A stretch of DNA of 64,000 nucleotides from Alphaproteobacteria bacterium (GTDB lineage: Bacteria; Pseudomonadota; Alphaproteobacteria; Rhizobiales; OSC116), in assembly GCA_002400495.2 (NCBI GenBank), contig NVQL02000076.1, positions 8,722 through 72,721 of the forward strand, given 5' to 3'. The translations under genes were made by a program, and so were the position numbers. Below, in pieces: positions 5,948-30,743 of this stretch. Numbering within the stretch: the stretch's first letter is position 1; the number at the start of each line of letters is the position of its first letter. Below the pieces are notes generated by a model, which ran no database searches, had not been told where the DNA came from, and worked only from the letters and a program-made list of their open reading frames with translations.

Positions 5948-6710
5948 TGAAACTCATACGTTTTCTGTTGTCGGAAATTTCAGCCCTTTTAGGCGCACTT
6001 CGCCTCGCTTATAGTCAAGCTCATATAAGTTGATTAAACTGATAATATAACATATTCATTAGATTTTCGTCATAAAGTTCTGTCTGTTCGTGAGAAGGAC
6101 GGGCTTGCAATTTCCGAGGTTGCTTTGCGTTTTTATATTGGTTTAGCCAATGTGACTTCGTGAATGGAACAAAATAAAAAACCCACATGAACGGAACCGT
6201 AAGTAATGAAGAGATGGTGGATTTTTTATTTTAATTGTAAAAAAACATGAAATTTAGATACAAAGGCCAGAATAATATTTCCGAATAATTACACAAACAG
6301 TCGATGAAATTTCCTAGTTAATTATATTTAGCTGTCCATCTTCGAATGCTTTGAGATAAATCGGTGATTGAACTAAGCTAGAGCTTGGACTTGCCTGATG
6401 AAAGAGGGCACAACTCGTTTCTTAACCCACTAATTTTTCATAGCGCATTGGGTTGGCATTGCTGCTTCCTGTTTTTTTGTTTCAATTCACTGAAAACCTG
6501 GTTTTCCAAGGAAGCTGCTTTCGAAGCACTTAATCCGCGATGATTAATTTTAACGTTGTAGAAGCTGTATTTCAGCATCTTGAGCGGAATAAACAAAGTA
6601 GATTTTATACAAATGAAAATATATATTGACAATTGTACGGTAATGATGAAAATTATAAATAATTTGTTAGGGTTATTTTTTACCAATATTGTAAATTAAG
6701 TGAAATTTAT

Positions 6711-8585: not shown

Positions 8586-8592
8586 TCCAAAC

Positions 8593-11150: not shown

Positions 11151-12049
11151 ACATGATGCTTGATCCGACTTTTTTTGATTCAATCGCTCGGTTTATCACG
11201 CCGCTTTTGCTGGCTGCGTTGGGCGGGGCGTTATGCGATAGGGCGGCGGTGTTTAACATTGCGCTCGAAGGCATGATGTTGATCGGGGCGTTTTTTGGCG
11301 TGGTTGGCTCTTATTATTTTGGCAGTTGGCAGGCTGGCTTATTGTTTGCCATTTTATCGGGCTTTGCTAGTGGTGTGGTGTTTTCGTGGTTTTCGATCTA
11401 TCGCAAAGGTGATGATATTGTTGTCAGCATTGGTTTTAATATATTGGCATTGGGCTTGACGGTGTTTTTGCTGCGGTATTTGTTCAATACGCGCGGGCAA
11501 TTTGATGATCCTAATATTATTGGCGTGCCGCGCATTAGCATTCCGATTATTTCGGACATTCCTTATATTGGTAATTTATTTGCTAACCAGTCCATCTTAT
11601 TTTACTTCGCGATTATATTGGTGTTTCTGATTCAATTTCTATTATTCAGGCACAAATATGGGTTATATTTGCGGGCTGCTGGTGATAATATTATGGCGCT
11701 GCGCACTGCTGGTCTTTCGCCTGAGTTGATTCAAAGTGGGGCGGTGATTGCTTGCGGAATTTTATGCGCTTTGGCGGGGGCGCAATTGTCGATCTCGAGC
11801 GTGACATTATTTGCTGAGGGCATGAGCGCGGGGCGCGGGTGGATTGCCGTGGTGATCATTATGATGTGTGCGGGGCGGCCGTTGCTTATATTGCCTGCAG
11901 CGATATTTTTTGGCCTGTTGGACGCGATTGGTTTTCGCATTCAAGCTTTTGGTGTGCCGCAACAATTTACCGATTCATTGCCGTATGTTTTGGCCATATT
12001 CATCATGGCCATTGCGATTGGCCGAAGGCGTCGTAAGTTAAATAAATAA
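11147..12049 (+). CDS. Nucleoside ABC transporter permease
   Basis: FNIALEGMML, GRGWIA and LPYV motifs. Confidence 0.9.
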   Translation: MNMMLDPTFFDSIARFITPLLLAALGGALCDRAAVFNIALEGMMLIGAFFGVVGSYYFGSWQAGLLFAILSGFASGVVFSWFSIYRKGDDIVVSIGFNILALGLTVFLLRYLFNTRGQFDDPNIIGVPRISIPIISDIPYIGNLFANQSILFYFAIILVFLIQFLLFRHKYGLYLRAAGDNIMALRTAGLSPELIQSGAVIACGILCALAGAQLSISSVTLFAEGMSAGRGWIAVVIIMMCAGRPLLILPAAIFFGLLDAIGFRIQAFGVPQQFTDSLPYVLAIFIMAIAIGRRRRKLNK

Positions 12050-12077: not shown

Positions 12078-13400
12078 ATGACTGTATTTCCACAGGCAGC
12101 CGATATTTTAGTGCTTGGCGGTGAAATTTTAACCATGGATGGTAAATTTACTAGCTTTGAAGATGGGGCTATTGCGATATCGGACAGTAAAATTGTTGCT
12201 GTTGGGCATCAGGTAGACGCTGCAAATTGCGAGGCTTGTGATACCATAAATGCCGAAGGTATGTTGGTGACGCCTGGCCTGGTCAACACCCATTGCCATG
12301 CAGCCATGACTTTGTTTCGTGGTTTGGCCGATGATGTGCCGTTGGATTTGTTTTTAAAAACCGTATGGGCAGCCGAAGCTGAACATGTCAATTATAACAA
12401 TGTTTTTGCGGGGGCGACATTGGGCATTGCTGAAATGGCAATGGGCGGAATTACGCATTTTGTTGACATGTATATGGAACCCGAAGCGACAATTGCAGCC
12501 TCACGGAAAGTTGGCATTAGTTTAACTTCTGGGCCGATATTTATGGGTATAAATTCGGTGTCTAGCGATGAATGGCAGGAACAGATGCGGGTTGCTGATG
12601 CTTATTTATCGATAGCCAAAGACAAGCCTGACGTGCAGAATATGATTATGCCGCATTCGAGTTATGCGCTGGATATGGCGCAGTTAAAAGACTTGGTTGC
12701 ATTGGCGCAAAAATATGACATTCGGATGCACACTCATGGTGCGGAAGCGCCTTCGGAAATGAAATTGGTCGCGGCGCTGCATGATGGTGCGCGACCAATT
12801 GACGTGTTTGAAAGTGCGGGTGTTTTTGCGCAAGGTGGTACATTGATTGCGCATGCGGTGGATTTAACTGATGAAGAAATTACACGTATGGCGGATTGTG
12901 GCGTTTCGGTTTCTCATTGCCCATTATCTAACAGCAAACTGGCTTCGGGCATGGCGCGGGTGAGGGATTTGCGCGCTGCTGGTGTGACTGTTTCGCTGGG
13001 TACTGATGGAGCGTCTAGTGGAAATGATCTTGATTTGTGGAAGGCCATGCGGCTGGCGAGTTTTGTGTCGGCATTGTTAACCGAGCAGCCTGCGGTTTTG
13101 CCTGCGCGGGAAATATTTGCTATGGCGACACGTGAGGGTGCAAAAGCTCTCGGGCTTGAAGATGAATTTGGTACGCTTGAAGTTGGCAAACGTGCGGATA
13201 TTATGATGATTGATATGTCGGCTTTGCATTTAACGCCTAGCTATGATCCATATTCGTCGCTGGTGTTTGCAGCTGGGCGTGAGGATGTTTGCCATGTGAT
13301 TGCGAACGGTGCGCTAGTGGTCGAAAATAAGCAACTTATTGCCGATATTTCAAGCGAAATTATGCAGGTCAAAAGAGTTGCTGATCAGATATCGGTATAA
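12078..13400 (+). CDS. Amidohydrolase, MtaD/DadD-like nucleoside deaminase
   Basis: PGLVNTHCH, HGAE, AHAV, HCPLSNSKLASG and LGTDG metal-binding motifs; nucleoside operon context. Confidence 0.8.
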   Translation: MTVFPQAADILVLGGEILTMDGKFTSFEDGAIAISDSKIVAVGHQVDAANCEACDTINAEGMLVTPGLVNTHCHAAMTLFRGLADDVPLDLFLKTVWAAEAEHVNYNNVFAGATLGIAEMAMGGITHFVDMYMEPEATIAASRKVGISLTSGPIFMGINSVSSDEWQEQMRVADAYLSIAKDKPDVQNMIMPHSSYALDMAQLKDLVALAQKYDIRMHTHGAEAPSEMKLVAALHDGARPIDVFESAGVFAQGGTLIAHAVDLTDEEITRMADCGVSVSHCPLSNSKLASGMARVRDLRAAGVTVSLGTDGASSGNDLDLWKAMRLASFVSALLTEQPAVLPAREIFAMATREGAKALGLEDEFGTLEVGKRADIMMIDMSALHLTPSYDPYSSLVFAAGREDVCHVIANGALVVENKQLIADISSEIMQVKRVADQISV

Positions 13401-13492: not shown

Positions 13493-15544
13493 TTAACGTA
13501 GACTGGCTTCGATATTACCGCCGTCAACAGTAAGAATATGGGCTGTCGTGCGCTCACTTTTGGCTAGCATCACAAAACCATCAGCGACATGTTTGGCTTC
13601 TACTTCACGATGTAATAAATTACCAGCCATATAGGTTTTTGTGTCTACGCCGCGGGCTTTGGAGCGGGTTTCGATGAATTCATCATCTAGTAAGCCCGAA
13701 CGAATGCGATCGGCATTAATGCCATTAACACGTATGTTATTTTCGCCTAGCTCTAGCGCGAGTTGTTTGACTAAAAATAGGGTTGTGGCTTTTGGTAGCC
13801 CATAAGCACCAAAACCTTTGCCGGGGTTTACGGCTTGTTTGGAGACGTTAAATAATAATTGCCCGCCAAAATCTTGTGTTTGCAGTATTTTGGCGGTTTG
13901 TTGAGCGAGTTTGTGATGGCTGAAAAAGTTCAAATTGAAGCTAGACATTAGTGTTTCATCATCCATTTCAACCATGCTGCTCTGCCACGCAGCGCCTGCA
14001 TTGCTGACCAAAATATCAACCCCACCAAAACGTTTTACGCACGCGGTCAATATATCATTTGCGGCATTTTCTTGGGTTATATCGCAAACCATATGTGCGT
14101 GGTCTTGGCCAAAATCGGCCTGAACTTGTTTTAAAGCGGCTTCATCTCTATCTACCAGAAACAGGTTTGCGCCTTGGTCTTTAAATGCTTTTGCGCTGGC
14201 TACACCTATGGCACCCGCAGCGCCTGTTACGACGACAATTTTGCCGTTAAAAACTTTGGGTTTTGCGCTGCCTAATTTGGCTTGCTCGAGTGACCAATAT
14301 TCCATTTCGAATAAATCTTTATCGCCAATTGGGTAAAAACCACCATTGGCTTGCGCCCATTGCATAACTTGGCAAGTTTGCTCGCCAATATCGGCGGCAA
14401 TGCGGGCTGCGCTGGCGTTTGCGCCTATGCCTAAAATACCTAGGCCTGGAATCCACGCTAAGTTTGGCGTGGGGCATAGCATTGTTTTGCTGTCTGCGGA
14501 GAGTTTTACTTGTTGGTTGAAATAGGCTTTATATTGTTGAATGAATTCTGCAACGGCGGTTTGAATGCCAGCTTTGCCTTGTGCCAATATATCGGCGGTT
14601 AATAGCAAGGGATGGCCTTTGGTGCGAATGACGTGGTCAGGTGTTGCCACACCGCGTGTCGCCAATTCTGCAAGATCATCACGCATTAAGAATGATAAGT
14701 TTTCGCTTGATGAGCGTAGGTCAAATATGGGAGCGGCACAGTCTGGATCTGCTGTATGTTTGGCAATTTCTGTCGATAAAACGCCACGTAGAATGGGTAA
14801 TATTTCTGAGGCGATTTGGATTTTTTGTGGGGTTTTGATTTCGGGTTTGGTGTTTTTGGTTAGCCAATCCTCGACTAAATTGACATGCTCGATCATTAAA
14901 TCGTATGATTTCTTGGCGCTATTTGCAAAGGTGAAATGCCCATGATTAATAAGCATCATGCCTTCGATATCGGGGTTGGCATCAAATATATCTGCTGCGG
15001 TTTTGGAGAGTGAGAAACCCGGCATAATGTAAGGCACAAGGGCAACGCGATCGCCAAAGATTTGTTTGGTTATTTTCTCGACATCAGGGAGGTTTGCCAA
15101 TGCTAACATCGAGGTTGCGTGGGTATGATCTACAAATTTATGGGGAATATAGGCGTGTAATAAGGTTTCGACTGAAGGGTTGGGTGATTTGCTATCTAAT
15201 AAGTTTGAACGTTGGATATTGACCATATCCTCATCTGATAGAGTTTCTAAATTTCGCAAATTGGCTAATGGTGCCATATTAACAGCGGGCAAGCCTGGGG
15301 CTTGGATGGTTTCTAAATCCCAACCGCTGCCTTTAACATGTAAAACCTTTATTGAGTTTCCAAAAATATCTGTCCGATCGACCTTAACCGAGGTATTCCC
15401 CCCACCATGCATGACGAGATCGGGGTTTTGCCCTAAAAGTTGAGATGTATAAACACGAAGTGCCAATTGTTGGTCTGCTGAATCTTCGCCCGCTTCAGTT
15501 AAAAATTGTTCTGCAATCTTTGTATTCCATAAATTTTCGACCAT
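13493..15544 (-). CDS. Bifunctional class II aldolase / short-chain dehydrogenase (RhaD-like fusion)
   Basis: GGGNTSVK, PSVETLLH, DHTH and NHG in the aldolase domain; TGAAGAIG, NAG and YGLPK in the SDR domain; start moved to ATG 15544 behind AGGAAA. Confidence 0.9.
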   Translation of the reverse strand: MVENLWNTKIAEQFLTEAGEDSADQQLALRVYTSQLLGQNPDLVMHGGGNTSVKVDRTDIFGNSIKVLHVKGSGWDLETIQAPGLPAVNMAPLANLRNLETLSDEDMVNIQRSNLLDSKSPNPSVETLLHAYIPHKFVDHTHATSMLALANLPDVEKITKQIFGDRVALVPYIMPGFSLSKTAADIFDANPDIEGMMLINHGHFTFANSAKKSYDLMIEHVNLVEDWLTKNTKPEIKTPQKIQIASEILPILRGVLSTEIAKHTADPDCAAPIFDLRSSSENLSFLMRDDLAELATRGVATPDHVIRTKGHPLLLTADILAQGKAGIQTAVAEFIQQYKAYFNQQVKLSADSKTMLCPTPNLAWIPGLGILGIGANASAARIAADIGEQTCQVMQWAQANGGFYPIGDKDLFEMEYWSLEQAKLGSAKPKVFNGKIVVVTGAAGAIGVASAKAFKDQGANLFLVDRDEAALKQVQADFGQDHAHMVCDITQENAANDILTACVKRFGGVDILVSNAGAAWQSSMVEMDDETLMSSFNLNFFSHHKLAQQTAKILQTQDFGGQLLFNVSKQAVNPGKGFGAYGLPKATTLFLVKQLALELGENNIRVNGINADRIRSGLLDDEFIETRSKARGVDTKTYMAGNLLHREVEAKHVADGFVMLAKSERTTAHILTVDGGNIEASLR

Positions 15545-15581
15545 TATGACATTTCCTATATATAATTTACCATTACCTCTA

Positions 15582-15610
15582 TTTGACAAATATCAGATAC
15601 ACTTGTCAAA
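15582..15610. promoter_or_regulatory. Palindromic site/divergent promoter, candidate SorC-family operator
   Basis: TTTGACA-N15-TGTCAAA between the divergent aldolase and regulator genes. Confidence 0.45.
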
Positions 15611-16701: not shown

Positions 16702-17796
16702 TTAAGCATGCTCTGGAAATAGTTTTAGCATCGCTTCATTATTGGCTGCACATACGCCGCGTTCGGTGATTAAGCCCGTGATTAAGTTTGCTGGTGTTAC
16801 ATCAAACGCAGGGTTGCCGCCTGGTGTGCTATCTGGCGAAATTTGCACAGATGTTACTGTGCCATCTGCCAATTTACCATATACATGCGTAACTTCTTTG
16901 CCTGTTCTCTCCTCAATGGGGATTTCTTTAATGCCATCATTAACCGTCCAGTCGATGGTGGGTGAGGGCAGAGCCACATAGAATGGAACGTTATTGGCTT
17001 TTGCTGCGAGGGCTTTTAAATAGGTGCCAATTTTGTTGCACACATCGCCTTGCGCTGTGGTGCGGTCTGTGCCGACAATCACCAAATCGACTTGCCCATG
17101 TTGCATCAAATGGCCGCCTGCATTATCGACTATTAAGGTATGTGGCACGCCATGGCCTGCCATTTCCCAACTGGTCAATTGTGCGCCTTGGTTACGCGGG
17201 CGGGTTTCATCGACCCATATGTGAATGGGAATGCCAGCTTCTTGGGCATGATACATGGCCGAGGTTGCGGTGCCCCAATCAACAGTTGCGAGCCAGCCAG
17301 CGTTGCAATGGGTGAGGATATTAATGGTTTCCCCCGGCTTTTTCTTGGCGGCAATCTCGCGAATGATAGCGAGGCCATTTTCGCCAATTTTTCGGTTAAT
17401 TTCGACATCTTCATCGCAGATTTCTATGGCTAATTTATAGGCGGCTTCGAGGCGCTCGTTTGGGGCGAGGGGCAATAAGACAGATTTTACACGGTCGAGC
17501 GCCCATCTTAGGTTGATGGCGGTCGGGCGAGTTTTGTTGAGCGCTTGCCAAGATTGTTCTACATATGCATCGCTCGTGTCTTCGGCCATGGCTAAAGCCA
17601 TACCATATGCTGCGGTTGCGCCAATAAGTGGGGCGCCACGCACCAGCATGTCGGCAATGGCTATTTCGGCATCTTTGCGGCTGGTTAAATCTACGATTTT
17701 AAATTCGTGTGGCAATAAGCGTTGTTCAATTATTTTTACAGTGCGCCCATCATCATCAAGCCAGATTGATCTATAATGTTTGTCTTGTACTTTCAT
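16702..17796 (-). CDS. mtnA: S-methyl-5-thioribose-1-phosphate isomerase
   Basis: [41 protein letters not shown] and NPAFDVTP motifs. Confidence 0.95.
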
Positions 17797-19061
17797 AGCT
17801 TGCTGTCTTTCTCAATTTTTACGATAAATTGGTTGATATTGTCTATATTTTCAAATTTTTTGCTTTGAGTTATGAGCTTGCGCCCCATGGCGATGCAGTT
17901 TTTTTCGACATTGGCGCGCGCTTTAATGTCTTCAATTGTATCAATTTCCATAATGTGCGCGAGGCCGATGGTGCGCCTGATCATCTCGGCACCCGCAAAG
18001 CCGATGGCGTCTTGCCAAATTGTGGTTAGCAGTTGGGTCAGAGCCTCGTCGCTAGCGTTTTGATGGCCTTGGTCTTTGAATAATTTGTCTTCAAATAAAA
18101 TACCATTGCGTTCTGTTTGCCAAAGGTTTGAAAATTCTTGGGTAAATGATATCCAAATTTTTTCGACTATTTTTAGAATCCATTTGCGGTAATCATCACG
18201 ATTGTCATCGGTAGTTTGATGACCTTGTTGCGCAAAATAGGCCATCCAAAAATTAGCGAGTAGCATGCCGACATCAAAACCTATAGGACCGTAAGTGGCA
18301 AATTCGGGGTCAATTATCGACGTTTCATTTTGCGTGACCATGATTGATCCTGTATGCAAATCGCCATGCAGTAGGGTTTCATTTTGAGTGAAAAATTTAG
18401 CTTTTAGAATTTGAACGGCTATTTTTAATTCAACGTCTTTACGTAGATCGCTGACCACTGCGTCTAAAGCTGGGGAATTAATATTATTGCTGTCAGCATC
18501 GTAATAGGGGTCGGTAAATACCAGATCTTCAGTTATGTTGCAAAGGGCTACATTGTCGGAAAATATGGCTAAATCGGCCTTAAAAGCAGGAGCGGTCAGT
18601 GAGTAACTTGAGCCTCGAAATAACGTTTGAGCGCAGAATATACCCATATCATGCGCTAGGTTTTTGTGTTTTATGCCGTCTTTTAAGCTATGGCGTAAAA
18701 TAACGTGTGGCTGCATAAATTGCATGACCAAAATAGCTTGTTTTTGGTTGAAATAATAAACCTCTGGAACCAAATTATTTGTGCGCTCTGCTTGACGCAC
18801 TAAAGCCTCATGTTCAAAGAAAGCGCGCTTTAAAGTTAGTGGCCAGCTTTCGCCCACCACGCGGACATAGGGCAGTGCTTGTTTGACGATTAATTTGCCT
18901 TTTGGGCCTTGTACAATGAAAACTAAATTTAAATTGCCATCGCCAACTTCATTTGAAGTCCATAAATTAGGGTCGTCACCAAGCCTTGCTTTTAGCGTGT
19001 TAATGTCGCCCAATCGGGTGCTAAGTGTTTCAATTGTTAACTCTTTATAGTCTTCCGACAT
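17793..19061 (-). CDS. mtnK: S-methyl-5-thioribose kinase
   Basis: [34 protein letters not shown] and EMIRR motifs. Confidence 0.95.
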
Positions 19062-19120: not shown

Positions 19121-19162
19121 GTGACAAAATTTATATCAATTGTCAATATGATTTGACATTTG
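19121..19162. promoter_or_regulatory. TGACA/TGTCA repeat cluster, candidate operator/promoter
   Basis: TGACA-N14-TGTCAA-N6-TTGACATTTG between the divergent mtnK and ABC genes. Confidence 0.45.
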
Positions 19163-19210
19163 ATATATTTTGCTTTTAAGTTAGGCGAAATAGAGGGACG
19201 ATTAAACCGA

Positions 19211-20764
19211 ATGGGTAAAGTTAATTCATCGATAAAACTAACTGGGCTTGAAAAGAGTTTCGGCTCAAACCGTGTTCTACGCGGCATAGATTTAGATATT
19301 CCTGCAGGGGAGGTCACCATTTTAATGGGCGCAAATGGTGCAGGAAAATCTACCTTGGTTAAAGTTATGTGCGGTGTGCATAAGGCGGATTCTGGCACGA
19401 TATATTTGGCGGGAGAAGAATTTAATCCACAGACACCCGCTGAGGCCATCAAGGCCGGCATCGTGACTGTGCATCAAAATATTAATGATGGTGTGGTGCC
19501 TGATTTAGATGTTGCGTCTAACCTTATGTTGGACGTATTGGCGAACCCTCATAGTTCGGTTTTTTTATTGCCGTCGAAAATTAGAAAATCGGCGAAACAA
19601 GCGGCCGAAAGGCTTGGGCTTGATTTGGATATGAGAGCGCCCGTACACAGCTTATCGCTTGCTGATAAACAGCTTGTTGCAATCACCCGCGCCATGGCTC
19701 ATGAGCCTAATTTACTTATATTGGATGAACCAACTTCGTCGCTGTCTTTATCGGAAACCCAAAGATTATTTGAATTGCTAGATAGGCTGAAAGCGCGTGG
19801 TGTGGCGATATTATATATTTCTCATCGTATGTCAGACATTAAACGTATGGCAGACCGCATTGTTAGTATGCGAGATGGCGAAGTGAGTGGTGTGTTTGAA
19901 GGTGATGATTTAGATTATATCGGTGCGGTAAATGCCATGCTTGGGCGTAAAATAGCGGATGTTGATATACAGATTCCTGAAGTTGGTGCGCCCGTATTGG
20001 AGCTTGAAAATATTCAATTATTGCCTAGCTCGAAGCCATTTTCGTTGGCAGCGCATAAAAACGAAATTATTGTGATTACAGGTTTGGTTGGCGTTGGGAA
20101 ATCGCTACTTGCTTCGGTTTTATTTGGGCGCGAAGCTTTGTTCAAGGGTGAGATATCCTTGAATGGCCAAAAATACAATCCTAAAAATATCACCGATGCG
20201 ATTAATGAAGGGGTGTTTTTATGCGCCAAGGACCGTGGCACGAATGGCATCATTCCAGAATTTAATATCAGTCATAATATATCACTGCCATTTTTATCGA
20301 CATTATCGAAATTTGGCTTTATTGGCCGCGGCGCGGAACGAGGTTTTGCCAAAACCGCCATAAAAGATTTGGGCATTATTTGCCAAGGTGAAGATGACAA
20401 TATTGAAGAACTTTCTGGCGGTAATCAACAAAAGGTCATGGTGGCTAGATGGTTGATGAAAAGCTCAAAATTACTAATTTTAGATGAACCTTTCCAAGGT
20501 GTTGATATTGCAGCGCGGCGCGATATTGGCAATAAATTACGCGAAACCGCCAAGGATAGAGCGACGATTGTTTTTGTCACAGAATTGGATGAGGCGCTTG
20601 AAATAGCCGATCGAATTTTTGTGATGTCAGAACATGGCGTGGTGGGCGAGCATAGAAATATGAATGCGGATGCTGATTTGATATTGGCGCAAGTTTTGGG
20701 TGATCAGGTTATGGATAAACGGATGAATAAGAATATTGGAATTAGTGAAGGAGCTGCCTTGTGA
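19211..20764 (+). CDS. Sugar ABC transporter ATP-binding protein (RbsA-like)
   Basis: GANGAGKST, LDEPTSSL, LSGGNQQK; start moved to ATG 19211. Confidence 0.92.
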   Translation: MGKVNSSIKLTGLEKSFGSNRVLRGIDLDIPAGEVTILMGANGAGKSTLVKVMCGVHKADSGTIYLAGEEFNPQTPAEAIKAGIVTVHQNINDGVVPDLDVASNLMLDVLANPHSSVFLLPSKIRKSAKQAAERLGLDLDMRAPVHSLSLADKQLVAITRAMAHEPNLLILDEPTSSLSLSETQRLFELLDRLKARGVAILYISHRMSDIKRMADRIVSMRDGEVSGVFEGDDLDYIGAVNAMLGRKIADVDIQIPEVGAPVLELENIQLLPSSKPFSLAAHKNEIIVITGLVGVGKSLLASVLFGREALFKGEISLNGQKYNPKNITDAINEGVFLCAKDRGTNGIIPEFNISHNISLPFLSTLSKFGFIGRGAERGFAKTAIKDLGIICQGEDDNIEELSGGNQQKVMVARWLMKSSKLLILDEPFQGVDIAARRDIGNKLRETAKDRATIVFVTELDEALEIADRIFVMSEHGVVGEHRNMNADADLILAQVLGDQVMDKRMNKNIGISEGAAL

Positions 20765-21774
20765 AGCAAGCAAGTTTGAGTAAAGACAAAATTAAAGCTG
20801 TTGCCATTCGCTATGGATTTTTAACCTTGCTCGCTGGGTTGGTGTTGTTTTTTAGCCTATCTGCGCCCGGTTTTGCGACACCGTTTAGTGCGGTGTTTAT
20901 ATTTCAGTCGGTGGCGATTACGGGTATTTTGGCGTTGGGTGTCACTGCAACTTTGGTGGTTGATGGGTTTGATTTGTCAATTGGTTCTATCGCCACATCT
21001 AGCTTGATGTTGTCGGCCTATATTATGGTGGTGCTAGAGCAGAATGCTGTTGTGGCAGTTATTGCTTGTTTGGCCATGGGGGCCATCGTTGGCTTGGTTA
21101 ATGGTGTTTTAATTGTCTATATGCGAGTGCCCGATTTGCTGGCTACTCTTGGTATGATGTTTTTGCTGATTGGTTTACAGCGCATTCCAACCGAAGGCCG
21201 CTCTATTGCTCAAGGCATGACACTACCTGGTGGCGAAACCGCTACGGGGGTGTTTTCTAAGTCATTTTTGGCATTGGGGCGTCATAAATTTGATTTTTTC
21301 ATAGAAAATTTCATTCCATTTTCAGTCATTATATTCGTGGTGATTGCGGTTTTAATTTGGTTGTATTTTGAATTTACCCGTTATGGGCGGGTTATGTATG
21401 CGATTGGCTCTAACGAGCGTGCCGCTGGCTTAGCTGGTGTGCCCGTGCATAAATATAAAATTATTGCCTATATGATTTCAGGCGTTTTGGCCTCAGTTGG
21501 TGGTATCTTGTTGGCTGCGCGTTTGGGTCGGGGGGACATCGCTTCGGGCAATAACCTATTGCTCGATTCGGTGGCGGCGGCGTTGATTGGTTTTGCGGTG
21601 CTTGGAGCGGCAAAACCTAATGCATTTGGCACTGCCATTGGTGCGTTGTTTGTCGGTATTTTATTGCAAGGTATGACGATGATGAACGCGCCTTATTATA
21701 CGCAAGACTTTGTAAAAGGCGCGGTATTGGTTGTGGCTTTGGTGTTTACTTTTTCACTATCAAATCGACGGTAA
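20761..21774 (+). CDS. Sugar ABC transporter permease (RbsC-like)
   Basis: GFDLSIGS, LATLG and YAIGSNERAA motifs. Confidence 0.92.
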   Translation: MKQASLSKDKIKAVAIRYGFLTLLAGLVLFFSLSAPGFATPFSAVFIFQSVAITGILALGVTATLVVDGFDLSIGSIATSSLMLSAYIMVVLEQNAVVAVIACLAMGAIVGLVNGVLIVYMRVPDLLATLGMMFLLIGLQRIPTEGRSIAQGMTLPGGETATGVFSKSFLALGRHKFDFFIENFIPFSVIIFVVIAVLIWLYFEFTRYGRVMYAIGSNERAAGLAGVPVHKYKIIAYMISGVLASVGGILLAARLGRGDIASGNNLLLDSVAAALIGFAVLGAAKPNAFGTAIGALFVGILLQGMTMMNAPYYTQDFVKGAVLVVALVFTFSLSNRR

Positions 21775-21845: not shown

Positions 21846-22898
21846 ATGAAAATAACCAGACGTATATTCACTTCGATGGTAGCAGGCGTGGTGTTAGCCG
21901 CAACTGGGATCATTGGAAGTGTGTCTGCAGCGGATATGCCTGCGCCATTTGACAAGCCAAGCGAAGTGAAAATTGCTTTGGTGCGTTATCTTTCGACGGG
22001 TGATTTTTTCCAAGCTTATTTGGCGGGTGTTGAATCACAAGCCAAAATATTGGGTGTTGATTTGCGTATTTTGGATAGCCGTCAGGACGCGGCTTTGCAA
22101 GCTGATATGGTTGACCAAGCGATTGCCTTGGGTGTCGATGGCATTATTGTGCAACATGGTTTAACAGAATCTATGCAAGAAGCTGTGAAACGGGCGATTG
22201 CCGCTGGCATTAAAGTGGTGGCATTTGATGTGGACGTCGAAAACCCAGATGTGCCACAAATTGAACAGTCTGACTTTATGTTGGCTAAAATGGCGCTAGA
22301 TCAAGCCATTATTGACAATGGCACAACATTTAATGCTGGCTATGTTTATGTTCCGGGCATTGCGCCGCTTGACCGTCGTGATGTGGCGTGGAAAGAAGTT
22401 AAAGACGCCAATCCAGGCATTAAACAACTTGCAGAATTTGGTACGTTGGACAACCCCATCGCCAACTCTGTTGCCAACCAAGCGCGTTCTGTTTTGGCGG
22501 CTAACCCAACCATTACGGTTATGTTTGCACCTTATGACGAATTTGCCAAAGGCGTAAAGATTGCGGTTGATGAAGCGGGTATGACCAGCCAAGTTAAGAT
22601 TTATTCGGCTGATGTTTCGACTTCTGATATTTCTGCAATGCGTGAAGAAGGAAGTGCATGGGCTGCGACGGCTGCGACAAACCCAGCAGTTGTTGGTGAG
22701 GTTTCGGTTCGGGTGTTGGCAATGTTGCTTGCGGGCGAAGATCCTGGTCACAATGTTGTGGTTCCCCCAACTTTGATCACGCAAACAATGCTGAATGATG
22801 GTGACATTAAAAACATGAAAGAGCTATCTGCAAAGATACCTGCATTTGCGCATGCAGATGTGGCTGTTCCAGCATGGATGCCGCTACCTAAACGCTAA
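21846..22898 (+). CDS. Sugar ABC substrate-binding protein
   Basis: Signal peptide, Peripla_BP-type pattern (GIKVVAFD), GGGAG RBS. Confidence 0.9.
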   Translation: MKITRRIFTSMVAGVVLAATGIIGSVSAADMPAPFDKPSEVKIALVRYLSTGDFFQAYLAGVESQAKILGVDLRILDSRQDAALQADMVDQAIALGVDGIIVQHGLTESMQEAVKRAIAAGIKVVAFDVDVENPDVPQIEQSDFMLAKMALDQAIIDNGTTFNAGYVYVPGIAPLDRRDVAWKEVKDANPGIKQLAEFGTLDNPIANSVANQARSVLAANPTITVMFAPYDEFAKGVKIAVDEAGMTSQVKIYSADVSTSDISAMREEGSAWAATAATNPAVVGEVSVRVLAMLLAGEDPGHNVVVPPTLITQTMLNDGDIKNMKELSAKIPAFAHADVAVPAWMPLPKR

Positions 22899-22920
22899 AA
22901 TGTAGTAGATATGAATGATG

Positions 22921-22952
22921 GGTCGACAAATTAATTTTGTCGGCCTTTTTTT
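22921..22952 (+). terminator. Rho-independent terminator
   Basis: GGTCGACAAA-TTAAT-TTTGTCGGCC stem followed by T7. Confidence 0.8.
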
Positions 22953-23037
22953 ATGATTGGTTCAAATTATACAAATGAAAATACTACTTGACATTTGTTG
23001 AATATTCGGCAATTTTAGTTTAAATGAACTGAGGTAT

Positions 23038-23970
23038 ATGATGAAAAATTCAAGAACGACTGAGCAGGTGGCTTTGGGCATTCGGCGTCGAGTGTTTGAA
23101 CATACGATACTTAATAATGGTGGCTATTTAAGCCAAGCTTGTTCATCTGCCGAAATGTTGGCATGGTTGTATAATGAAGCGCTTACTATTGGCGATCCGA
23201 CCTTGCCGATGATACCACGTGATTTTTCAGGCGTGCCTTCGGTTAATAATCCTGACTATGTATCTGGCGCAGGATATAATGGCCCTGCAACGCCAGAATA
23301 TGACCGCTTATTCATTGCGCCCGCGCATTATGCCTTGGTGGCTTATGCCACCTTAATTGAAGTGGGGCGAATGGCACCTGAAGGGCTTGAGATGTTTAAT
23401 AAAGATGGCTCATCGGTCGAAATGATTGGGGCTGACCATTCTCCGGGTATGGAGGTTCATAACGGCACGCTCGGCATTGGCCTTTCGACTGCATCTGGCC
23501 TTGCCTATGGCCGCAGAAAACGCGGCGATAAAGGCGAAGTTTGTGTGTTTATGTCTGACGGTGAAGTGCAAGAGGGGCAAACATGGGAAGCGGTTCAAGC
23601 TTGCGCTCATCACGGTATTGATAATGTTTGGGCGATCATGGATGTGAATAATCAGCAATGCGATGGCGCGATGTCGAGTGTAATGGAAGTGCGCGATATT
23701 GCCACAAAATTCAGAGCTTTTGGCGCGGTTGCGGTGGAAATTGACGCCCATGATTTGGACGCTATGCGCCAAGCCAAAGCGGAGCCACATGAGGGGAAAC
23801 CGCTTATTATTTTGGCGCATTCATCGCCGATGAAAGGCATGAAGAAATTGGAAGAAAGATTCCCACGCCTGCATTATGTGCGTTTTAAAAGCCCAGAAGA
23901 ACGTGCTGAATATAATATATCAATCGCCGCGGAGCTTGGTGTTGACCCCGTTGTATATGAAACACATTAA
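23038..23970 (+). CDS. Transketolase-like ThDP enzyme, N-terminal (PP) subunit, divergent
   Basis: GTLGIGLS and the SDGEVQEGQTWEA...DVNN ThDP-binding motif. Confidence 0.88.
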   Translation: MMKNSRTTEQVALGIRRRVFEHTILNNGGYLSQACSSAEMLAWLYNEALTIGDPTLPMIPRDFSGVPSVNNPDYVSGAGYNGPATPEYDRLFIAPAHYALVAYATLIEVGRMAPEGLEMFNKDGSSVEMIGADHSPGMEVHNGTLGIGLSTASGLAYGRRKRGDKGEVCVFMSDGEVQEGQTWEAVQACAHHGIDNVWAIMDVNNQQCDGAMSSVMEVRDIATKFRAFGAVAVEIDAHDLDAMRQAKAEPHEGKPLIILAHSSPMKGMKKLEERFPRLHYVRFKSPEERAEYNISIAAELGVDPVVYETH

Positions 23971-23999: not shown

Positions 24000-25004
24000 A
24001 TGGTTGAAATGGTAACACGCCCGTATGCGGGTGCTTTTGAAAAATACGCTTTGGCAAACCCCGATGTAATTTGTGTATCGGCCGATTTAACATCATCTTG
24101 CGAAATTGATGGTTTTAGAGACCGTCACCCTGAGCAATTTTTATCGATGGGCATGGCTGAACAAAATATGATGAGTTTTGTCGGCGGTTTGAACATGGCG
24201 GGATACAGGCCGTTTGTTCATACATTTGGAGTGTTTACCTATAGACGACCCTATGACCAGCTTATGGCATCCATTGCCTATGGGCGCAGGAAAGTGCGCA
24301 TTATGGGTTTTTTGCCGGGCATCACAACACCGGGCGGTATGACGCATCAGGCGATTGAGGATATTTCGGTCATGCGTGCCATGCCCAATATGACCATATT
24401 AGAAACTGGTGATGCCACCGAAGTTGAGTCTATTTGCGCAGCAGCAGATAGCATTGATGGCCCCGTTTATTGCCGTGTTTTGCGCGGCAATGTGCCTCGA
24501 TTATTTGACACGCCGATAAAAGTCGGCGAAATGCGTGAGTTAAGCTCAGGCAGCGATATATTAGTGGTCACTGCGGGCATCACAACCGAAGAGGCGATGC
24601 GCGCGCGCGCGGCATTACAAGATGCGGGTGTGTCTATACGTCATTTGCATTTAAACACGTTAAAGCCATTCGATTCTGAAACTTTGTTGGATCACTTGCA
24701 GTCGGTAAAATACGGGGTGATCACGCTTGAAAACCATGTCGTTACGGGCGGGATTGGTTCGATAGTTGCGGAAACGATTGCAGATGCGGGTATCGCCAAA
24801 CGGCTTATTCGTTTAGGTTTGCAAGATACTTATGCGCATGGTGGCTCGCGTGCTTATTTAATGCGTTATTATGGCCTAGATGCATTGGCCTTAATACATG
24901 CAATTGATGATATGTTGGGCAACTCGACAGGCATAGGTGAAGAAGATTTGAATGCAGCACGTGTAGACGCTGTGCATTCTCTGGCTAAAGCTGAAGGGTT
25001 ATAA
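24000..25004 (+). CDS. Transketolase-like ThDP enzyme, C-terminal (Pyr/C) subunit
   Basis: SADL, GMAEQNM, RRPYDQ, THQAIED and ENH...GGIGS motifs. Confidence 0.9.
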   Translation: MVEMVTRPYAGAFEKYALANPDVICVSADLTSSCEIDGFRDRHPEQFLSMGMAEQNMMSFVGGLNMAGYRPFVHTFGVFTYRRPYDQLMASIAYGRRKVRIMGFLPGITTPGGMTHQAIEDISVMRAMPNMTILETGDATEVESICAAADSIDGPVYCRVLRGNVPRLFDTPIKVGEMRELSSGSDILVVTAGITTEEAMRARAALQDAGVSIRHLHLNTLKPFDSETLLDHLQSVKYGVITLENHVVTGGIGSIVAETIADAGIAKRLIRLGLQDTYAHGGSRAYLMRYYGLDALALIHAIDDMLGNSTGIGEEDLNAARVDAVHSLAKAEGL

Positions 25005-25006: not shown

Positions 25007-26122
25007 ATGTCGCGGTTTAATGTGACCTATAAAATATTTGCGGATAATGATAAACATGCTTTGAGCCGTGCCGAAAATATAGCCTTGGAACAAACTGTAG
25101 AAATACCGCGTGACATCGTGCCAAAAGGTTATATTGAAGACAATATATTGGGCAAACTAGAGGATATAACGCGTGCCGATAACCAGAGTTTTAACGCTCA
25201 AATTAGCTACAGCCCTGACAGCGTAGGCAGCGAATTGCCGCAATTGCTAAATGTGATATTTGGCAATAGCGGCATCCAAAAAGGCTTGAAAGTTATCGAT
25301 CTCGAATTGGGTGATGTTTTATCCCAGCGCTTTACAGGTGCAAAATTTGGTATTGATGGCGTGCGTAAAAAAATTGGCCGTTCAAGCGGCGCATTAATTG
25401 CTGCGGTGATTAAGCCACAAGGGTCGAGTGTTGATGAGTTGGCGTTGATTGCCTATCGCTGTGCGTTGGCTGGTGCGGATATCATTAAAGACGACCATGG
25501 GTTAACCAATCAACATATGGCGCCATTTAAAGAGCGGGTTGAGAAGATTTGTGAAGCGGTGGCAAAAGCCAATTTAGAAACGGGACTCAATTGTTTGTAT
25601 TTCCCGAATATTGCAGGCCATAGCGCGGATTTAGAACGATATGCTGAATTTGCTAAGAATTCGGGCGGTGGTGGCGTGTTGGTTATGCCTGGATTATTTG
25701 GGTTTGATGCGGCTTTGCGTTTGGCAAGGGATGATGATTTTAATTTACCGATTATGACGCATCCGAGCTTTTTAGGGCCGTATATTTTGTCTGAAGACAC
25801 AGGTTTTAGCCATGCGATGATGTTTGGTAAAATACAACGTCTATGCGGTGCTGATATTTCGGTGTTTCCAAATGTTGGCGGTCGGTTTGGTTTTTCTGAG
25901 TTGGAATGCCGATCTATTGCCATTGCTTGCAAATCAGATGATGGCATTGGCAAACCAATCATGCCTAGCCCTGGGGGCGGGATGACCAAGGAACGTGCGG
26001 CAGATTTAAAAACCATGTATGGAGACGATGTGGTTCTTTTGCTGGGTGGTTCGTTGCTGCGTTATGGCGATAAAATTGGTGACGGAATTAAAGAAATGCG
26101 CACGGCGCTTGATGCTGTTTGA
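25007..26122 (+). CDS. RuBisCO-like protein (form IV RLP)
   Basis: IALEQTVE, IKPQG, GADIIKDDHGL, THPS and PSPGGG motifs; 371 aa; lacks canonical KPK and KDDE. Confidence 0.92.
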   Translation: MSRFNVTYKIFADNDKHALSRAENIALEQTVEIPRDIVPKGYIEDNILGKLEDITRADNQSFNAQISYSPDSVGSELPQLLNVIFGNSGIQKGLKVIDLELGDVLSQRFTGAKFGIDGVRKKIGRSSGALIAAVIKPQGSSVDELALIAYRCALAGADIIKDDHGLTNQHMAPFKERVEKICEAVAKANLETGLNCLYFPNIAGHSADLERYAEFAKNSGGGGVLVMPGLFGFDAALRLARDDDFNLPIMTHPSFLGPYILSEDTGFSHAMMFGKIQRLCGADISVFPNVGGRFGFSELECRSIAIACKSDDGIGKPIMPSPGGGMTKERAADLKTMYGDDVVLLLGGSLLRYGDKIGDGIKEMRTALDAV

Positions 26123-30225: not shown

Positions 30226-30250
30226 TATAACCCCACAAAGGTTTGAGAAA

Positions 30251-30742: not shown

Positions 30743-30743
30743 T

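What the first reader, a model, noticed from the sequence alone, without database searches (positions are those of the whole stretch)
25007..26122. KDDH-type RuBisCO-like protein coupled to a ThDP enzyme rather than a cupin
Seen: IKPQG and DIIKDDHG in place of KPKLG and KDDE; it starts 2 bp after the transketolase stop. From memory, these signatures match the R. rubrum-type (DeepYkr) RLP, a methylthioribulose-1-P 1,3-isomerase normally followed by a cupin methylsulfurylase. Inference: the same isomerisation with a new downstream step; with 5-deoxyribulose-1-P the product would be DXP, linking radical-SAM waste to isoprenoid or central metabolism.
Basis: partly seen in the sequence, partly recalled or inferred. 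Interest (0 to 1): 0.7.

Follow-up and report, generated by a model that had tools for sequence, protein, structure and literature searches.

The report
RuBisCO-like isomerase paired with odd transketolase
This gene encodes a RuBisCO-like enzyme of the methylthioribose-recycling kind that is partnered with a re-tooled thiamine enzyme instead of its usual sulfur-releasing cupin, which points to an undescribed and widespread way of salvaging the sugar left-overs of S-adenosylmethionine.

Summary
Window 25007-26122 (+) is an intact 371-aa RuBisCO-like protein (RLP) with IKPQG and DIIKDDHG, starting 2 bases after the stop of a split transketolase.

It belongs to the DeepYkr family. The best solved match is 3qfw, and MtnW and apionate RLPs are outgroups. 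It sits in a separate clade, only 33-40% identical to cupin-linked members.

Of clade loci with enough upstream DNA, 58 of 60 carry the two transketolase genes directly upstream. None of 84 has the cupin. All 16 cupin-type loci have the cupin and no transketolase. No such cupin was found in this genome. A natural RLP-transketolase fusion exists.

The transketolase keeps its cofactor and phosphate sites but has lost four canonical substrate residues.

The locus is a methylthioribose/5-deoxyribose island: ABC importer, MtnK, MtnA, aldolase-dehydrogenase fusion and a nucleoside module.

Most likely the RLP isomerises methylthioribulose-1-P and the thiamine enzyme cleaves the product. This is inferred, not shown.

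My ten paper searches found no description. Earlier notes of this scan report the same pair in other genomes.

The parts
25007..26122 (+). RuBisCO-like protein, DeepYkr family, transketolase-linked clade (371 aa; KPQG and KDDH motifs)
24000..25004 (+). C-terminal subunit of the atypical split ThDP enzyme (Transket_pyr + Transketolase_C). The His461- and Asp469-equivalents are hydrophobic (Phe104/Leu105) and Gly112.
23038..23970 (+). N-terminal subunit of the atypical split ThDP enzyme (Transketolase_N). The His26-equivalent is Tyr30 and the His100-equivalent is Met129/Ile130. The ThDP/metal motif is kept.
22972..22993 (+). Exact copy of CAAATG-N10-TTGACA, 45 nt upstream of the transketolase start; candidate operator
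22920..22946 (+). Terminator-like hairpin (11 pairs plus a T run) just after the binding-protein gene
21846..22898 (+). Periplasmic sugar-binding protein of the ABC importer; best solved relative is 4ry8 (226.6 bits)
20761..21774 (+). ABC importer permease (ribose type)
19160..20764 (+). ABC importer ATPase (two ABC domains)
19141..19162 (-). Exact copy of CAAATG-N10-TTGACA in the divergent mtnK/ABC promoter region; overlaps a TGTCAA-N6-TTGACA palindrome
17793..19061 (-). MtnK, 5-methylthioribose kinase (TIGR01767 499.5 bits, cut-off 275); the only copy found in the genome
16702..17796 (-). MtnA, methylthioribose-1-P isomerase (TIGR00512 423 bits, cut-off 279); the only copy found in the genome
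15656..16699 (+). SorC/DeoR-type sugar-phosphate-binding regulator
13493..15589 (-). Bifunctional class II aldolase / short-chain dehydrogenase (NF006192 880 bits, cut-off 639); conserved neighbour of the cluster
12078..13400 (+). TRZ/ATZ amidohydrolase resembling 5'-deoxyadenosine / methylthioadenosine deaminases (all models below cut-off)
7575..12049 (+). BMP-family (nucleoside-type) ABC transporter: binding protein, ATPase, two permeases
6711..7544 (+). Purine nucleoside phosphorylase (NF006054 299.6 bits, cut-off 218)
6610..6631 (+). Third exact copy of CAAATG-N10-TTGACA, 80 nt upstream of the phosphorylase gene

Best explanation
The gene encodes a form-IV RuBisCO-like protein of the DeepYkr family (the family of the Rhodospirillum rubrum / Rhodopseudomonas palustris RLP1 methylthioribulose-1-P 1,3-isomerase). 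It belongs to a distinct clade whose fixed partner is an atypical split thiamine-diphosphate (ThDP) enzyme rather than the cupin methylsulfurylase.

Proposed pathway:
1. The ABC importer takes up free 5-methylthioribose, and probably 5-deoxyribose.
2. MtnK phosphorylates it at C1. Endogenous methylthioadenosine enters through MtnP or the deaminase-phosphorylase module.
3. MtnA makes the ribulose-1-phosphate.
4. The RLP moves the carbonyl to give 1-methylthio-xylulose-5-P (or 1-deoxyxylulose-5-P).
5. The transketolase-like enzyme cleaves this xylulose-configured ketose between C2 and C3. The products are glyceraldehyde-3-P and a ThDP-bound two-carbon fragment.
6. That fragment is either released as (methylthio)acetaldehyde or loses methanethiol to leave an acetyl unit.
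7. The neighbouring aldolase-dehydrogenase provides a parallel DHAP-shunt branch from the same ribulose-1-P.

Shown here: family placement, gene linkage, loss of the cupin, remodelling of the transketolase, and the surrounding salvage genes.

Inferred: every chemical step of the RLP and of the ThDP enzyme.

My odds:
- The pair works in methylthioribose/5-deoxyribose salvage: 0.85.
- The RLP is the 1,3-isomerase: 0.6.
- The ThDP enzyme cleaves its product to glyceraldehyde-3-P: 0.45.
For: Family.
- The best solved relative is 3qfw (221 bits); MtnW scores 143 bits.
- In an IQ-TREE of 81 rows, MtnW is sister to the whole family (aLRT 99). The query lies in a 23-row clade (aLRT 100). That clade is nested beside cupin-fused relatives.
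- A cupin-linked RLP (L014) matches 3qfw at 407 bits, and its cupin matches 3jzv 'Rru_A2000' at 199 bits.
- Passages of PMC5893883 state that RLP1 (RPA2169) is the isomerase and RPA2170 the cupin.

Linkage.
- 58 of 60 clade loci with at least 2100 nt upstream have both transketolase genes. 0 of 84 have the cupin.
- 16 of 16 cupin-type loci have the cupin and 0 of 16 a transketolase.
- Rhizobium rosettiformans and Shinella plasmids carry one mtnK-mtnA-tkN-tkC-rlp operon.
- Ponticoccus carries phosphorylase-amidohydrolase-mtnA-reductase-tkN-tkC-rlp.
- P0298 (1115 aa) is a natural RLP-TK_N-TK_C fusion with the same motifs.

Context.
- Of 29 loci with at least 9 kb on both sides, 26 have MtnK and MtnA, 25 the binding protein and 19 the aldolase-dehydrogenase.

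Own genome.
- One RLP and no RLP-type cupin.
- MtnP present, and no MtnN over the cut-off.
- No MtnD, and no MtnB over the cut-off.
- Single MtnA and MtnK.
- An O-acetylhomoserine sulfhydrylase that could use methanethiol.

Transketolase residues.
- Tyr at the His26-equivalent in 64 of 64 sequences.
- Met at the His100-equivalent in 61 of 64.
- Phe at the His461-equivalent in 72 of 72.
- Gly at the Asp469-equivalent in 72 of 72.
- The ThDP/metal motif, the activating Glu, and the Arg358-, Arg520- and Ser385-equivalents are kept (HMMER alignments).

Sulfur link.
- BisC-family S/N-oxide reductases abut the pair in two unrelated loci.
Against: No activity was measured.

The RLP is only 33-40% identical to cupin-linked members. 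It differs at conserved positions: Gly128 for Arg, Gly323 for Ala/Ser, His269 and Arg352. A changed substrate or product is therefore possible.

An aldolase-family gene accompanies the pair in both the main and the variant loci. This could mean one sequential pathway that I have not understood, rather than two branches. If the ThDP enzyme merely released methylthioacetaldehyde it would duplicate the aldolase.

Variant loci (L022, L025, L037, L073) pair the same two genes with a PfkB kinase and another ABC importer; two of them (L025, L037) also carry an AraD-like protein. None has MtnK or MtnA within 10 kb. So the pair is not tied to MtnK/MtnA everywhere.

Two loci (L032, L045) have the RLP without a transketolase within 10 kb upstream.

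The roles of the transketolase residues, and their E. coli numbering, are my recollection, not a tool result. Two of the equivalences shift by one residue between alignments.

The loci are not independent samples. Many are near-copies from marine metagenomes.
Confidence: 0.5

Rival explanations
1. The pair is specialised for 5-deoxyribose, the radical-SAM by-product. The RLP turns 5-deoxyribulose-1-P into 1-deoxyxylulose-5-P. That product feeds isoprenoid synthesis or is split by the ThDP enzyme (a DXP-synthase-like half reaction in reverse) into glyceraldehyde-3-P and acetaldehyde. The aldolase-dehydrogenase handles methylthioribulose-1-P.
For: The C-terminal subunit resembles DXP synthases almost as well as transketolases (TIGR00204 155.7 bits; PDB DXS chains at about 100 bits). 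RefSeq labels one orthologue a 'DXP synthase N-terminal domain' protein. Loss of the residue I recall as binding the donor C1 hydroxyl fits a 1-deoxy donor as well as a 1-methylthio donor. The deaminase resembles 5'-deoxyadenosine deaminase.
Against: Sulfoxide-reductase genes next to the pair in two loci point to sulfur compounds. The genome already has a full DXS (785.6 bits). Cleaving DXP to the same products as the aldolase would be redundant. The only characterised activity in the family is on the methylthio substrate (PMC5893883 passages).
Confidence: 0.15
2. The pair performs different chemistry or acts in a different order. Examples: the ThDP enzyme builds or trims a sugar phosphate that the RLP then enolises, epimerises or decarboxylates; or the aldolase-family protein, the dehydrogenase, the RLP and the ThDP enzyme form one linear route to a product other than glyceraldehyde-3-P.
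For: Variant loci combine the pair with a PfkB kinase and another importer, and two of them also with an AraD-like protein; none has MtnK or MtnA nearby. An aldolase-family gene is close to the pair in most long loci. The clade differs from characterised RLPs at conserved positions and keeps an MtnW-like loop with an invariant His269. RLPs are known to catalyse several reaction types: OiaX is in NCBIfam; the other examples are from my recollection.
Against: The clade is nested among cupin-linked and cupin-fused RLPs, so the ancestral substrate was probably methylthioribulose-1-P. The catalytic Lys, Lys, Asp, His set is unchanged. Single operons mtnK-mtnA-tkN-tkC-rlp exist. The xylulose configuration that PMC5893883 reports for the major RLP product is, as I recall, the one that transketolase donors need.
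Confidence: 0.25
3. It is an MtnW-type diketo-methylthiopentyl-1-P enolase of the classical oxygen-dependent methionine salvage pathway.
For: The highest NCBIfam hits are MtnW models. It has an MtnW-like loop.
Against: Both MtnW models score far below their cut-offs. The motif is KDDH, not KDDE. MtnW is an outgroup. No MtnD was found, and no MtnB over the cut-off, in the genome.
Confidence: 0.02

Closest known systems
MTA-isoprenoid shunt of Rhodospirillum rubrum and Rhodopseudomonas palustris (MtnP, MtnA, DeepYkr RLP1, cupin methylsulfurylase)
   Same: Same RLP family with the same catalytic motif set. MtnA and MtnP are present. An O-acetylhomoserine sulfhydrylase is available for methanethiol. 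An aldolase branch co-exists with the RLP branch, as PMC5893883 describes for R. palustris.
   Different: No cupin next to the gene or found elsewhere in the genome. An atypical split ThDP enzyme sits directly upstream instead. The RLP is only 33-40% identical and forms its own clade. The locus adds an importer and MtnK for external methylthioribose.
DHAP shunt for 5'-methylthioadenosine and 5'-deoxyadenosine (MtnK/MtnP, MtnA, class II aldolase Ald2); known to me from recollection and from PMC5893883 passages
   Same: MtnK, MtnA and a class II aldolase lie in one island. The fused dehydrogenase could do the aldehyde reduction that PMC5893883 assigns to a separate alcohol dehydrogenase.
   Different: The aldolase is fused to a short-chain dehydrogenase and is of the RhaD type. 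The island also carries the RLP-ThDP pair, which the DHAP shunt lacks.
Split transketolase of Carboxydothermus hydrogenoformans (PDB 6yak/6yaj)
   Same: Two-gene architecture and fold: 111.6 and 188.8 bits. The ThDP and phosphate sites are kept.
   Different: The solved enzyme has His at the two N-subunit positions and His and Asp at the two C-subunit positions, where this family has Tyr, Met/Ile, Phe/Leu and Gly. NCBIfam transketolase models are not reached (134.4 and 191.6 against 488).
MtnW (YkrW) RLP enolase of Bacillus
   Same: RuBisCO fold and a methylthio-sugar phosphate substrate class. It is the sister group in the tree.
   Different: KDDE versus KDDH. It is below the model cut-offs. 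The genome lacks its pathway partners.
ThDP enzymes that expel a leaving group next to the ThDP-bound carbon: phosphoketolase and sulfoacetaldehyde acetyltransferase (recollection, not tested)
   Same: They are a chemical precedent for losing methanethiol from a ThDP-bound methylthio-hydroxyethyl fragment to give an acetyl unit.
   Different: No sequence relationship beyond the ThDP fold was shown here. No phosphate or CoA acceptor step is evident in this window.

Membership tests
DeepYkr RLP (methylthioribulose-1-P 1,3-isomerase family) | RuBisCO large-subunit catalytic domain | tested here: met
   PF00016 80.6 bits against cut-off 30.1
DeepYkr RLP (methylthioribulose-1-P 1,3-isomerase family) | Groups with R. 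rubrum / R. palustris RLP1-type sequences rather than MtnW, OiaX-type RLPs or true RuBisCO | tested here: met
   3qfw is the best PDB hit. The family node has aLRT 99 with MtnW outside. However, the query is in a separate subclade from the cupin-adjacent alphaproteobacterial sequences. That 3qfw is the R. palustris protein is my recollection.
DeepYkr RLP (methylthioribulose-1-P 1,3-isomerase family) | Active-site set Lys(KPxG), Lys-Asp-Asp-His, His252- and Arg293-equivalents, Gly-Gly phosphate site | tested here: met
   All are conserved at 85% or more in both the 66 transketolase-linked and the 43 cupin-linked sequences
DeepYkr RLP (methylthioribulose-1-P 1,3-isomerase family) | Followed by, or fused to, the cupin 1-methylthioxylulose-5-P methylsulfurylase | tested here: not met
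   0 of 84 clade loci have it. None was found in the own genome: best profile hit 21 bits, and no phmmer hit at E 1e-5.
DeepYkr RLP (methylthioribulose-1-P 1,3-isomerase family) | Converts methylthioribulose-1-P to 1-methylthioxylulose-5-P | not testable with these tools
   Needs an enzyme assay
MtnW enolase | Reaches the NCBIfam equivalog cut-off; KDDE motif; MtnB, MtnX and MtnD partners | tested here: not met
   205.7 against 409 and 160.7 against 513.6; KDDH; no ARD, and no MtnB over the cut-off
Canonical transketolase (for the partner enzyme) | ThDP/metal-binding motif and cofactor-activating Glu | tested here: met
   The Asp, Asn and Glu equivalents are invariant in 64 TK_N and 72 TK_C sequences
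Canonical transketolase (for the partner enzyme) | Substrate-binding His26, His100, His461 and Asp469 (E. coli numbering, recalled) | tested here: not met
   Tyr 64/64, Met 61/64, Phe 72/72 and Gly 72/72. The same replacements appear in HMMER alignments to 6yak, 6yaj and human transketolase. Models are below cut-off.
DXP synthase (for the partner enzyme) | Reaches the TIGR00204 cut-off as one chain | tested here: not met
   155.7 against 465.95 for the C subunit only. A full DXS lies elsewhere in the genome.
DHAP shunt | MtnK (or MtnP), MtnA and a class II aldolase clustered together | tested here: met
   TIGR01767 499.5, TIGR00512 423 and NF006192 880 bits, all above their cut-offs. The substrate of the aldolase domain was not tested.

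The most novel reading that the evidence does not exclude
The remodelled split transketolase is a new kind of carbon-sulfur-releasing ThDP lyase. It cleaves 1-methylthioxylulose-5-P to glyceraldehyde-3-P. It then expels methanethiol from the ThDP-bound two-carbon fragment, leaving an acetyl unit. In this way it replaces the glutathione-dependent cupin with an oxygen- and thiol-independent route of methionine-sulfur salvage. That route would be common in marine alphaproteobacteria and, by earlier notes of this scan, in actinobacteria, clostridia and algae.
Probability: 0.25. Interest if true: 0.85.

Novelty: new variant of a known kind. Interest (0 to 1): 0.65.

Why it matters
Methylthioadenosine and 5'-deoxyadenosine are unavoidable by-products of S-adenosylmethionine chemistry. 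Their sugars are shed into the environment.

Known bacterial routes end in the oxygen-dependent MtnD step, the cupin-dependent isoprenoid shunt or the aldolase (DHAP) shunt. This locus type would add a fourth solution, built on an RLP and a re-tooled thiamine enzyme.

It is common. 367 metagenome stretches encoded a relative in one scan, among them ocean-survey contigs.

This genome has no MtnD and no MtnB over the cut-off. Its only MtnA and MtnK lie in this island.

If the enzyme releases methanethiol, it bears on marine volatile-sulfur budgets. It would also give the RuBisCO and transketolase superfamilies a new reaction pairing that is directly testable with two or three purified proteins.

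Tried and rejected
- **True RuBisCO or MtnW.** Rejected by model cut-offs, motifs and the tree.
- **Apionate-type RLP.** OiaX scores 70.7 bits against a cut-off of 700, and it is an outgroup.
- **Cupin elsewhere in the genome.** A profile of 7 RLP-linked cupins against all six-frame ORFs gave only two generic 21-bit hits. phmmer with one cupin gave nothing. The genome is 91.6% complete, so absence is not proven.
- **Canonical transketolase or DXS as the partner.** Rejected.
- **First ORF calling in high-GC loci.** My first greedy calling mis-called genes: 3 of 7 supposed cupins had no Pfam hit. I replaced it with tblastn, which found the cupin in 16 of 16 loci.
- **Adjacency script.** It counted 59 of 69 for TK_C. 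Seven of the ten 'misses' are overlaps of the stop and start codons, and one is the split RLP of L003. By reading the table the figure is 67 of 69.
- **Monophyly of all transketolase-linked RLPs.** FastTree split off a second small clade (L078, P0125, L103, L104) with weak placement. IQ-TREE joined the two together with four rows of unknown context (aLRT 90). This is unresolved.
- **Shared operator in front of the transketolase genes.** It is exact in this window, but only 8 of 57 other loci have it within 250 nt at one mismatch or fewer. That is weak as a general rule.
- **Identity of PDB 4ry8.** I recall it as a methylthioribose-binding protein, but I could not verify this.
- **Key papers.** Erb 2012 and Warlick 2012 could not be opened, so any remark there on transketolase neighbours is unseen. 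Warlick's thesis was also not seen.
- **Not run.** No structure or complex prediction was run.
Full report
**Observation.** The ORF at 25007-26122 (+) is intact and encodes 371 residues. IKPQG is residues 135-139 and DIIKDDHG is residues 158-165. The upstream ORF ends with TAA at 25002-25004, and the ATG follows two bases later. Pfam gives RuBisCO_large (E 1.6e-22) for this ORF. It gives Transket_pyr plus Transketolase_C for 24000-25004 and Transketolase_N for 23038-23970.

**Which RLP it is.**
- NCBIfam's MtnW, form III and OiaX models all score far below their cut-offs (205.7/409, 160.7/513.6, 124.3/497, 70.7/700).
- The best solved relative is 3qfw (221 bits, also KDDH), ahead of MtnW structures (143 bits and lower). 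I recall 3qfw as the R. palustris RLP; the tool gives only a generic name.
- An even sample of 401 genomes of the same class gave 18 with a match at E 1e-30 or better. Two were at 66-100% identity (the own genome and G014). Sixteen were at 34-40%.
- All 16 of the latter have a cupin gene directly downstream. One of them (L014) matches 3qfw at 407 bits, and its cupin matches PDB 3jzv 'uncharacterized protein Rru_A2000' at 199 bits.
[quoted passage not shown] The 34-40% group is therefore the characterised type.

**Trees.**
- A FastTree of 230 rows put the query in a clade of 76 (local support 99). The rows were the query, 94 sequences cut from loci (among them three named plasmid RLPs and five plasmid outgroups) and 135 cluster representatives of 330 aa or more. 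The clade held 63 rows with a transketolase neighbour, 10 rows from contigs where no transketolase was seen (mostly too short, plus L032 and L045) and 3 representatives of unknown context.
- A second, four-row transketolase-linked clade (L078, P0125, and the Rhizobium rosettiformans and Shinella plasmids) was placed elsewhere with weak support.
- An IQ-TREE (LG+G4, short search) of 81 rows that I chose gave this order: form I RuBisCO at the root; then OiaX and two four-carbon-acid-kinase-linked RLPs; then MtnW as sister (aLRT 99) to the whole family.
- Inside the family, one clade holds the 14 cupin-adjacent and 8 cupin-fused rows (aLRT 98). The other (aLRT 99) holds all 27 rows that I labelled transketolase-type plus four rows of unknown context (aLRT 90). 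That group sits beside a 10-row clade of long cupin fusions (aLRT 100).
- P0121, P0122 and P0125 carry the transketolase label only from their tree position.
- Reading: the transketolase-linked RLPs are nested among cupin-linked ones. The cupin partner is probably ancestral and was replaced. One or two replacements cannot be told apart.

**Linkage.** I compared 84 loci of the clade (3 genome records, G014 and 80 metagenome contigs) by tblastn with the window's proteins.
- Of 60 loci with at least 2100 nt upstream of the RLP, 58 have both transketolase genes.
- Of 69 loci with at least 1100 nt upstream, 67 have the C-terminal subunit directly upstream. This is my reading of the table; the script's figure of 59 missed start-stop overlaps and the split RLP of L003.
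- The exceptions are L032 and L045, from one project.
- None of the 84 has the cupin. None of the 16 cupin-type loci has a transketolase.
- Of 29 loci with at least 9 kb on both sides, 27 have the transketolase genes, 26 have MtnK and MtnA, 25 the binding protein, 25 a SorC regulator, 19 the aldolase-dehydrogenase and 9 an RbsD/FucU mutarotase.
- These loci are related to one another and many are near-copies, so the counts show conservation, not independent events.
- Named examples: Rhizobium rosettiformans p1 and Shinella peSHIWSC3 carry a single operon mtnK-mtnA-tkN-tkC-rlp beside the importer and the aldolase-dehydrogenase. Ponticoccus alexandrii p-SCP4 carries phosphorylase-amidohydrolase-mtnA-molybdoenzyme-tkN-tkC-rlp beside a nucleoside-type importer.
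- A search for longer relatives found 30 proteins. Twenty-two are RLP-cupin fusions by their precomputed Pfam domains, 7 list only the RuBisCO domain, and one, P0298 (1115 aa), is RLP-TK_N-TK_C. P0298 has KDDH and the same atypical transketolase motifs, and is 41, 45 and 58% identical to the three window proteins. I confirmed that one exists, but not its organism.

**The partner enzyme.** I aligned it with the genome's own full-length transketolase, and then tallied 64 N-subunits and 72 C-subunits from the loci.
- Kept: the ThDP/metal motif, the cofactor-activating Glu, the equivalents of His66, His261 and His473, and the phosphate-binding Arg358, Ser385 and Arg520.
- Replaced: the His26-equivalent is Tyr (64/64). 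The His100-equivalent is Met (61/64, Gln in 3). The His461-equivalent is Phe (72/72). The Asp469-equivalent is Gly (72/72).
- HMMER alignments to the solved split transketolase 6yak/6yaj and to human transketolase show the same replacements. In those alignments the His100- and His461-equivalents fall one residue later, on Ile130 and Leu105, which are still hydrophobic.
- The E. coli numbering, and the roles of these residues, are from my memory, not from a tool. I recall the donor C1 and C3 hydroxyls, the sugar-phosphate tail and the C4 hydroxyl that sets D-threo specificity.
- If that recollection is right, the enzyme still binds ThDP and a phosphorylated sugar, but it no longer reads a normal hydroxymethyl ketose donor. 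This fits a 1-methylthio or 1-deoxy ketose.

**The island in this window.**
- Upstream lie a purine nucleoside phosphorylase (6711-7544) and a BMP-family ABC transporter (7575-12049).
- Next is a TRZ/ATZ amidohydrolase resembling 5'-deoxyadenosine and methylthioadenosine deaminases (12078-13400; all models below cut-off).
- Next is a bifunctional class II aldolase / short-chain dehydrogenase (13493-15589, minus strand; NF006192 880 bits against 639).
- That aldolase gene is also adjacent to the cluster in three of four other genomes searched.
- The binding protein of the importer is closest to PDB 4ry8 (226.6 bits). I recall 4ry8 as a methylthioribose-binding protein but could not verify this.
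- Genome-wide (3.96 Mb, 91.6% complete): one RLP; MtnP present (295.7 against 274.85); no MtnN over the cut-off; DXS present; no MtnD; no MtnB over the cut-off; single MtnA and MtnK, both in the island; and an O-acetylhomoserine sulfhydrylase (615.7 against 495.1).
- MtnP yields methylthioribose-1-P directly, so MtnK makes sense mainly for imported free methylthioribose.
- No classical salvage pathway was found. The island holds the only route seen here beyond MtnP.

**Regulation.**
- CAAATG-N10-TTGACA occurs exactly three times in the 64-kb window. The sites are 80 nt before the phosphorylase gene (6610), in the divergent mtnK/importer region (19141) and 45 nt before the transketolase gene (22972).
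- I derived the pattern from the latter two regions, so only the first is an independent hit.
- Across 67 related loci, 37 of 56 matches (one mismatch or fewer) lie in the MtnK/importer intergenic region. Only 8 of 57 loci have a match within 250 nt upstream of the transketolase gene.
- An exact 12-mer (TTGTTGAATATT) is shared by the regions before the regulator gene and before the transketolase gene.
- A strong hairpin follows the binding-protein gene.
- In this window the transketolase-RLP pair thus looks like its own unit within a common regulon. The evidence is modest.

**Mechanism.**
- *Shown:* family, linkage, fusion, loss of the cupin, remodelling of the ThDP enzyme, and the salvage context.
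- *Inferred:* methylthioribose (or 5-deoxyribose) is imported, phosphorylated by MtnK and isomerised by MtnA. The RLP converts the ribulose-1-P to the xylulose-5-P form. PMC5893883 reports a 3:1 xylulose:ribulose product ratio for the family. The ThDP enzyme attacks C2 of this D-threo ketose and cleaves C2-C3, releasing glyceraldehyde-3-P.
- *The two-carbon fragment* could be protonated and leave as (methylthio)acetaldehyde or acetaldehyde. It could lose methanethiol by beta-elimination to give acetyl-ThDP; phosphoketolase and sulfoacetaldehyde acetyltransferase are the precedents I recall. Or it could be passed to an acceptor.
- I favour elimination for the methylthio substrate for two reasons. 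It would reproduce the cupin's job (freeing methanethiol for the sulfhydrylase). And simple aldehyde release would duplicate the neighbouring aldolase.
- *Sulfur link:* BisC-family S/N-oxide reductases lie directly beside the pair in two unrelated loci (L037 at 866 bits and Ponticoccus at 901 bits to TIGR00509, both below the 1017 cut-off). This ties the pair to organosulfur substrates.
- *The aldolase-dehydrogenase* is best read as a fused DHAP-shunt branch. PMC5893883 describes the RLP and aldolase branches running side by side in R. palustris.

**What argues against this.**
- No chemistry was tested.
- The RLP differs from cupin-linked members at conserved positions: Gly128 for Arg, Val134 for Ala, Gly323 for Ala (Ser in RuBisCO and MtnW), an invariant His269 in an MtnW-like loop, and Arg352 near the phosphate site.
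- Variant loci (L022, L025, L037, L073) join the pair to a PfkB kinase and another importer without MtnK or MtnA within 10 kb. L025 and L037 also carry an AraD-like class II aldolase-family protein (NF005123 238-245 bits against 251). L073 also has an LsrF-like DeoC/LacD protein.
- The steady company of an aldolase-family gene may mean one pathway that I have not decoded.

**Literature.** Ten full-text searches combined RLP, DeepYkr, methylthioribulose, methylsulfurylase, 5-deoxyribose and mtnK/mtnA with transketolase, plus one for 4RY8. They found no paper that links an RLP with a transketolase in this salvage. I saw only listings, apart from passages of PMC5893883. Erb 2012 and Warlick 2012 are not held. 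Warlick's thesis was not seen, and any of these might mention the neighbourhood.

**Earlier notes of this scan.** At least a dozen AI notes on other genomes describe the same RLP-atypical-transketolase cluster and likewise found it undescribed. By their own descriptions those genomes include freshwater actinobacteria, Acidimicrobiia and soil bacteria, and one note says the pair recurs from clostridia to diatoms. My reading was formed before I saw them. They gave me the fusion lead and the shared-operator idea, both of which I tested here.

**Verdict.** The finding is real. The family call and the 'ThDP enzyme instead of cupin' reading are supported at the genomic level. The biochemical reading is plausible but untested. 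It is a new variant of a known kind of pathway: not novel within this scan, but apparently undescribed in print.

Noticed in passing
window 6610-13400: A nucleoside module (phosphorylase, BMP-type ABC transporter, deaminase-like amidohydrolase) lies next to the methylthioribose island. It carries the same CAAATG-N10-TTGACA motif upstream. The same three enzymes form one operon with mtnA and the transketolase-RLP pair on a Ponticoccus plasmid (L102).
   Followed up: partly
L037:11129-13438 and L102:8785-11061: BisC-family molybdenum S/N-oxide reductases lie directly beside the transketolase-RLP pair in two unrelated loci. This may point to sulfoxide forms of methylthio-sugars or nucleosides as inputs.
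   Followed up: partly
L022, L025, L037, L073: These variant loci pair the same transketolase-RLP genes with a PfkB kinase, a second type of CUT2 importer and a SorC regulator. They have no MtnK or MtnA within 10 kb. L025 and L037 also carry an AraD-like class II aldolase-family protein. Their substrate is unknown.
   Followed up: partly
L032 and L045 (metagenome contigs of one project): An RLP of this clade sits beside the importer, MtnK, MtnA and the aldolase-dehydrogenase, but no transketolase genes lie within 10 kb upstream.
   Followed up: no
L003:10001-11115: In a Methyloligellaceae MAG the RLP reads as two ORFs (134 and 201 aa). This is either a frameshift or an assembly error. The pair there is followed by an acyl-CoA dehydrogenase and a CoA-transferase, and the genome lacks the aldolase-dehydrogenase.
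   Followed up: no
P0189, P0272, P0271, P0129, P0144: Other long RLP fusions exist. One has an inositol-monophosphatase domain in front of the RLP. Several have 200-470-residue N-terminal extensions with no solid Pfam match (P0272 has one faint sub-threshold hit).
   Followed up: no
window 22920-22946: A strong terminator-like hairpin (11 pairs plus a T run) lies between the binding-protein gene and the transketolase gene. It could raise binding-protein transcript levels or separate two transcription units.
   Followed up: no
window 29362-33167: About 3 kb downstream lie genes for a three-subunit molybdenum hydroxylase. The flavoprotein subunit resembles glyceraldehyde dehydrogenase beta (258.9 bits, below cut-off 350). 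Unrelated genes separate it from the RLP, and no link was tested.
   Followed up: no
window 28071-29192: A membrane MHYT sensor domain is fused to a LytTR DNA-binding domain, making a one-component regulator.
   Followed up: no
L002:7469-7954 and L005:6905-7357 (and 9 of 29 long loci): An RbsD/FucU-type mutarotase gene is inserted between the binding-protein and transketolase genes in some relatives. It is absent at that place in this window; the genome's one RbsD-like ORF lies on another contig (C14).
   Followed up: partly
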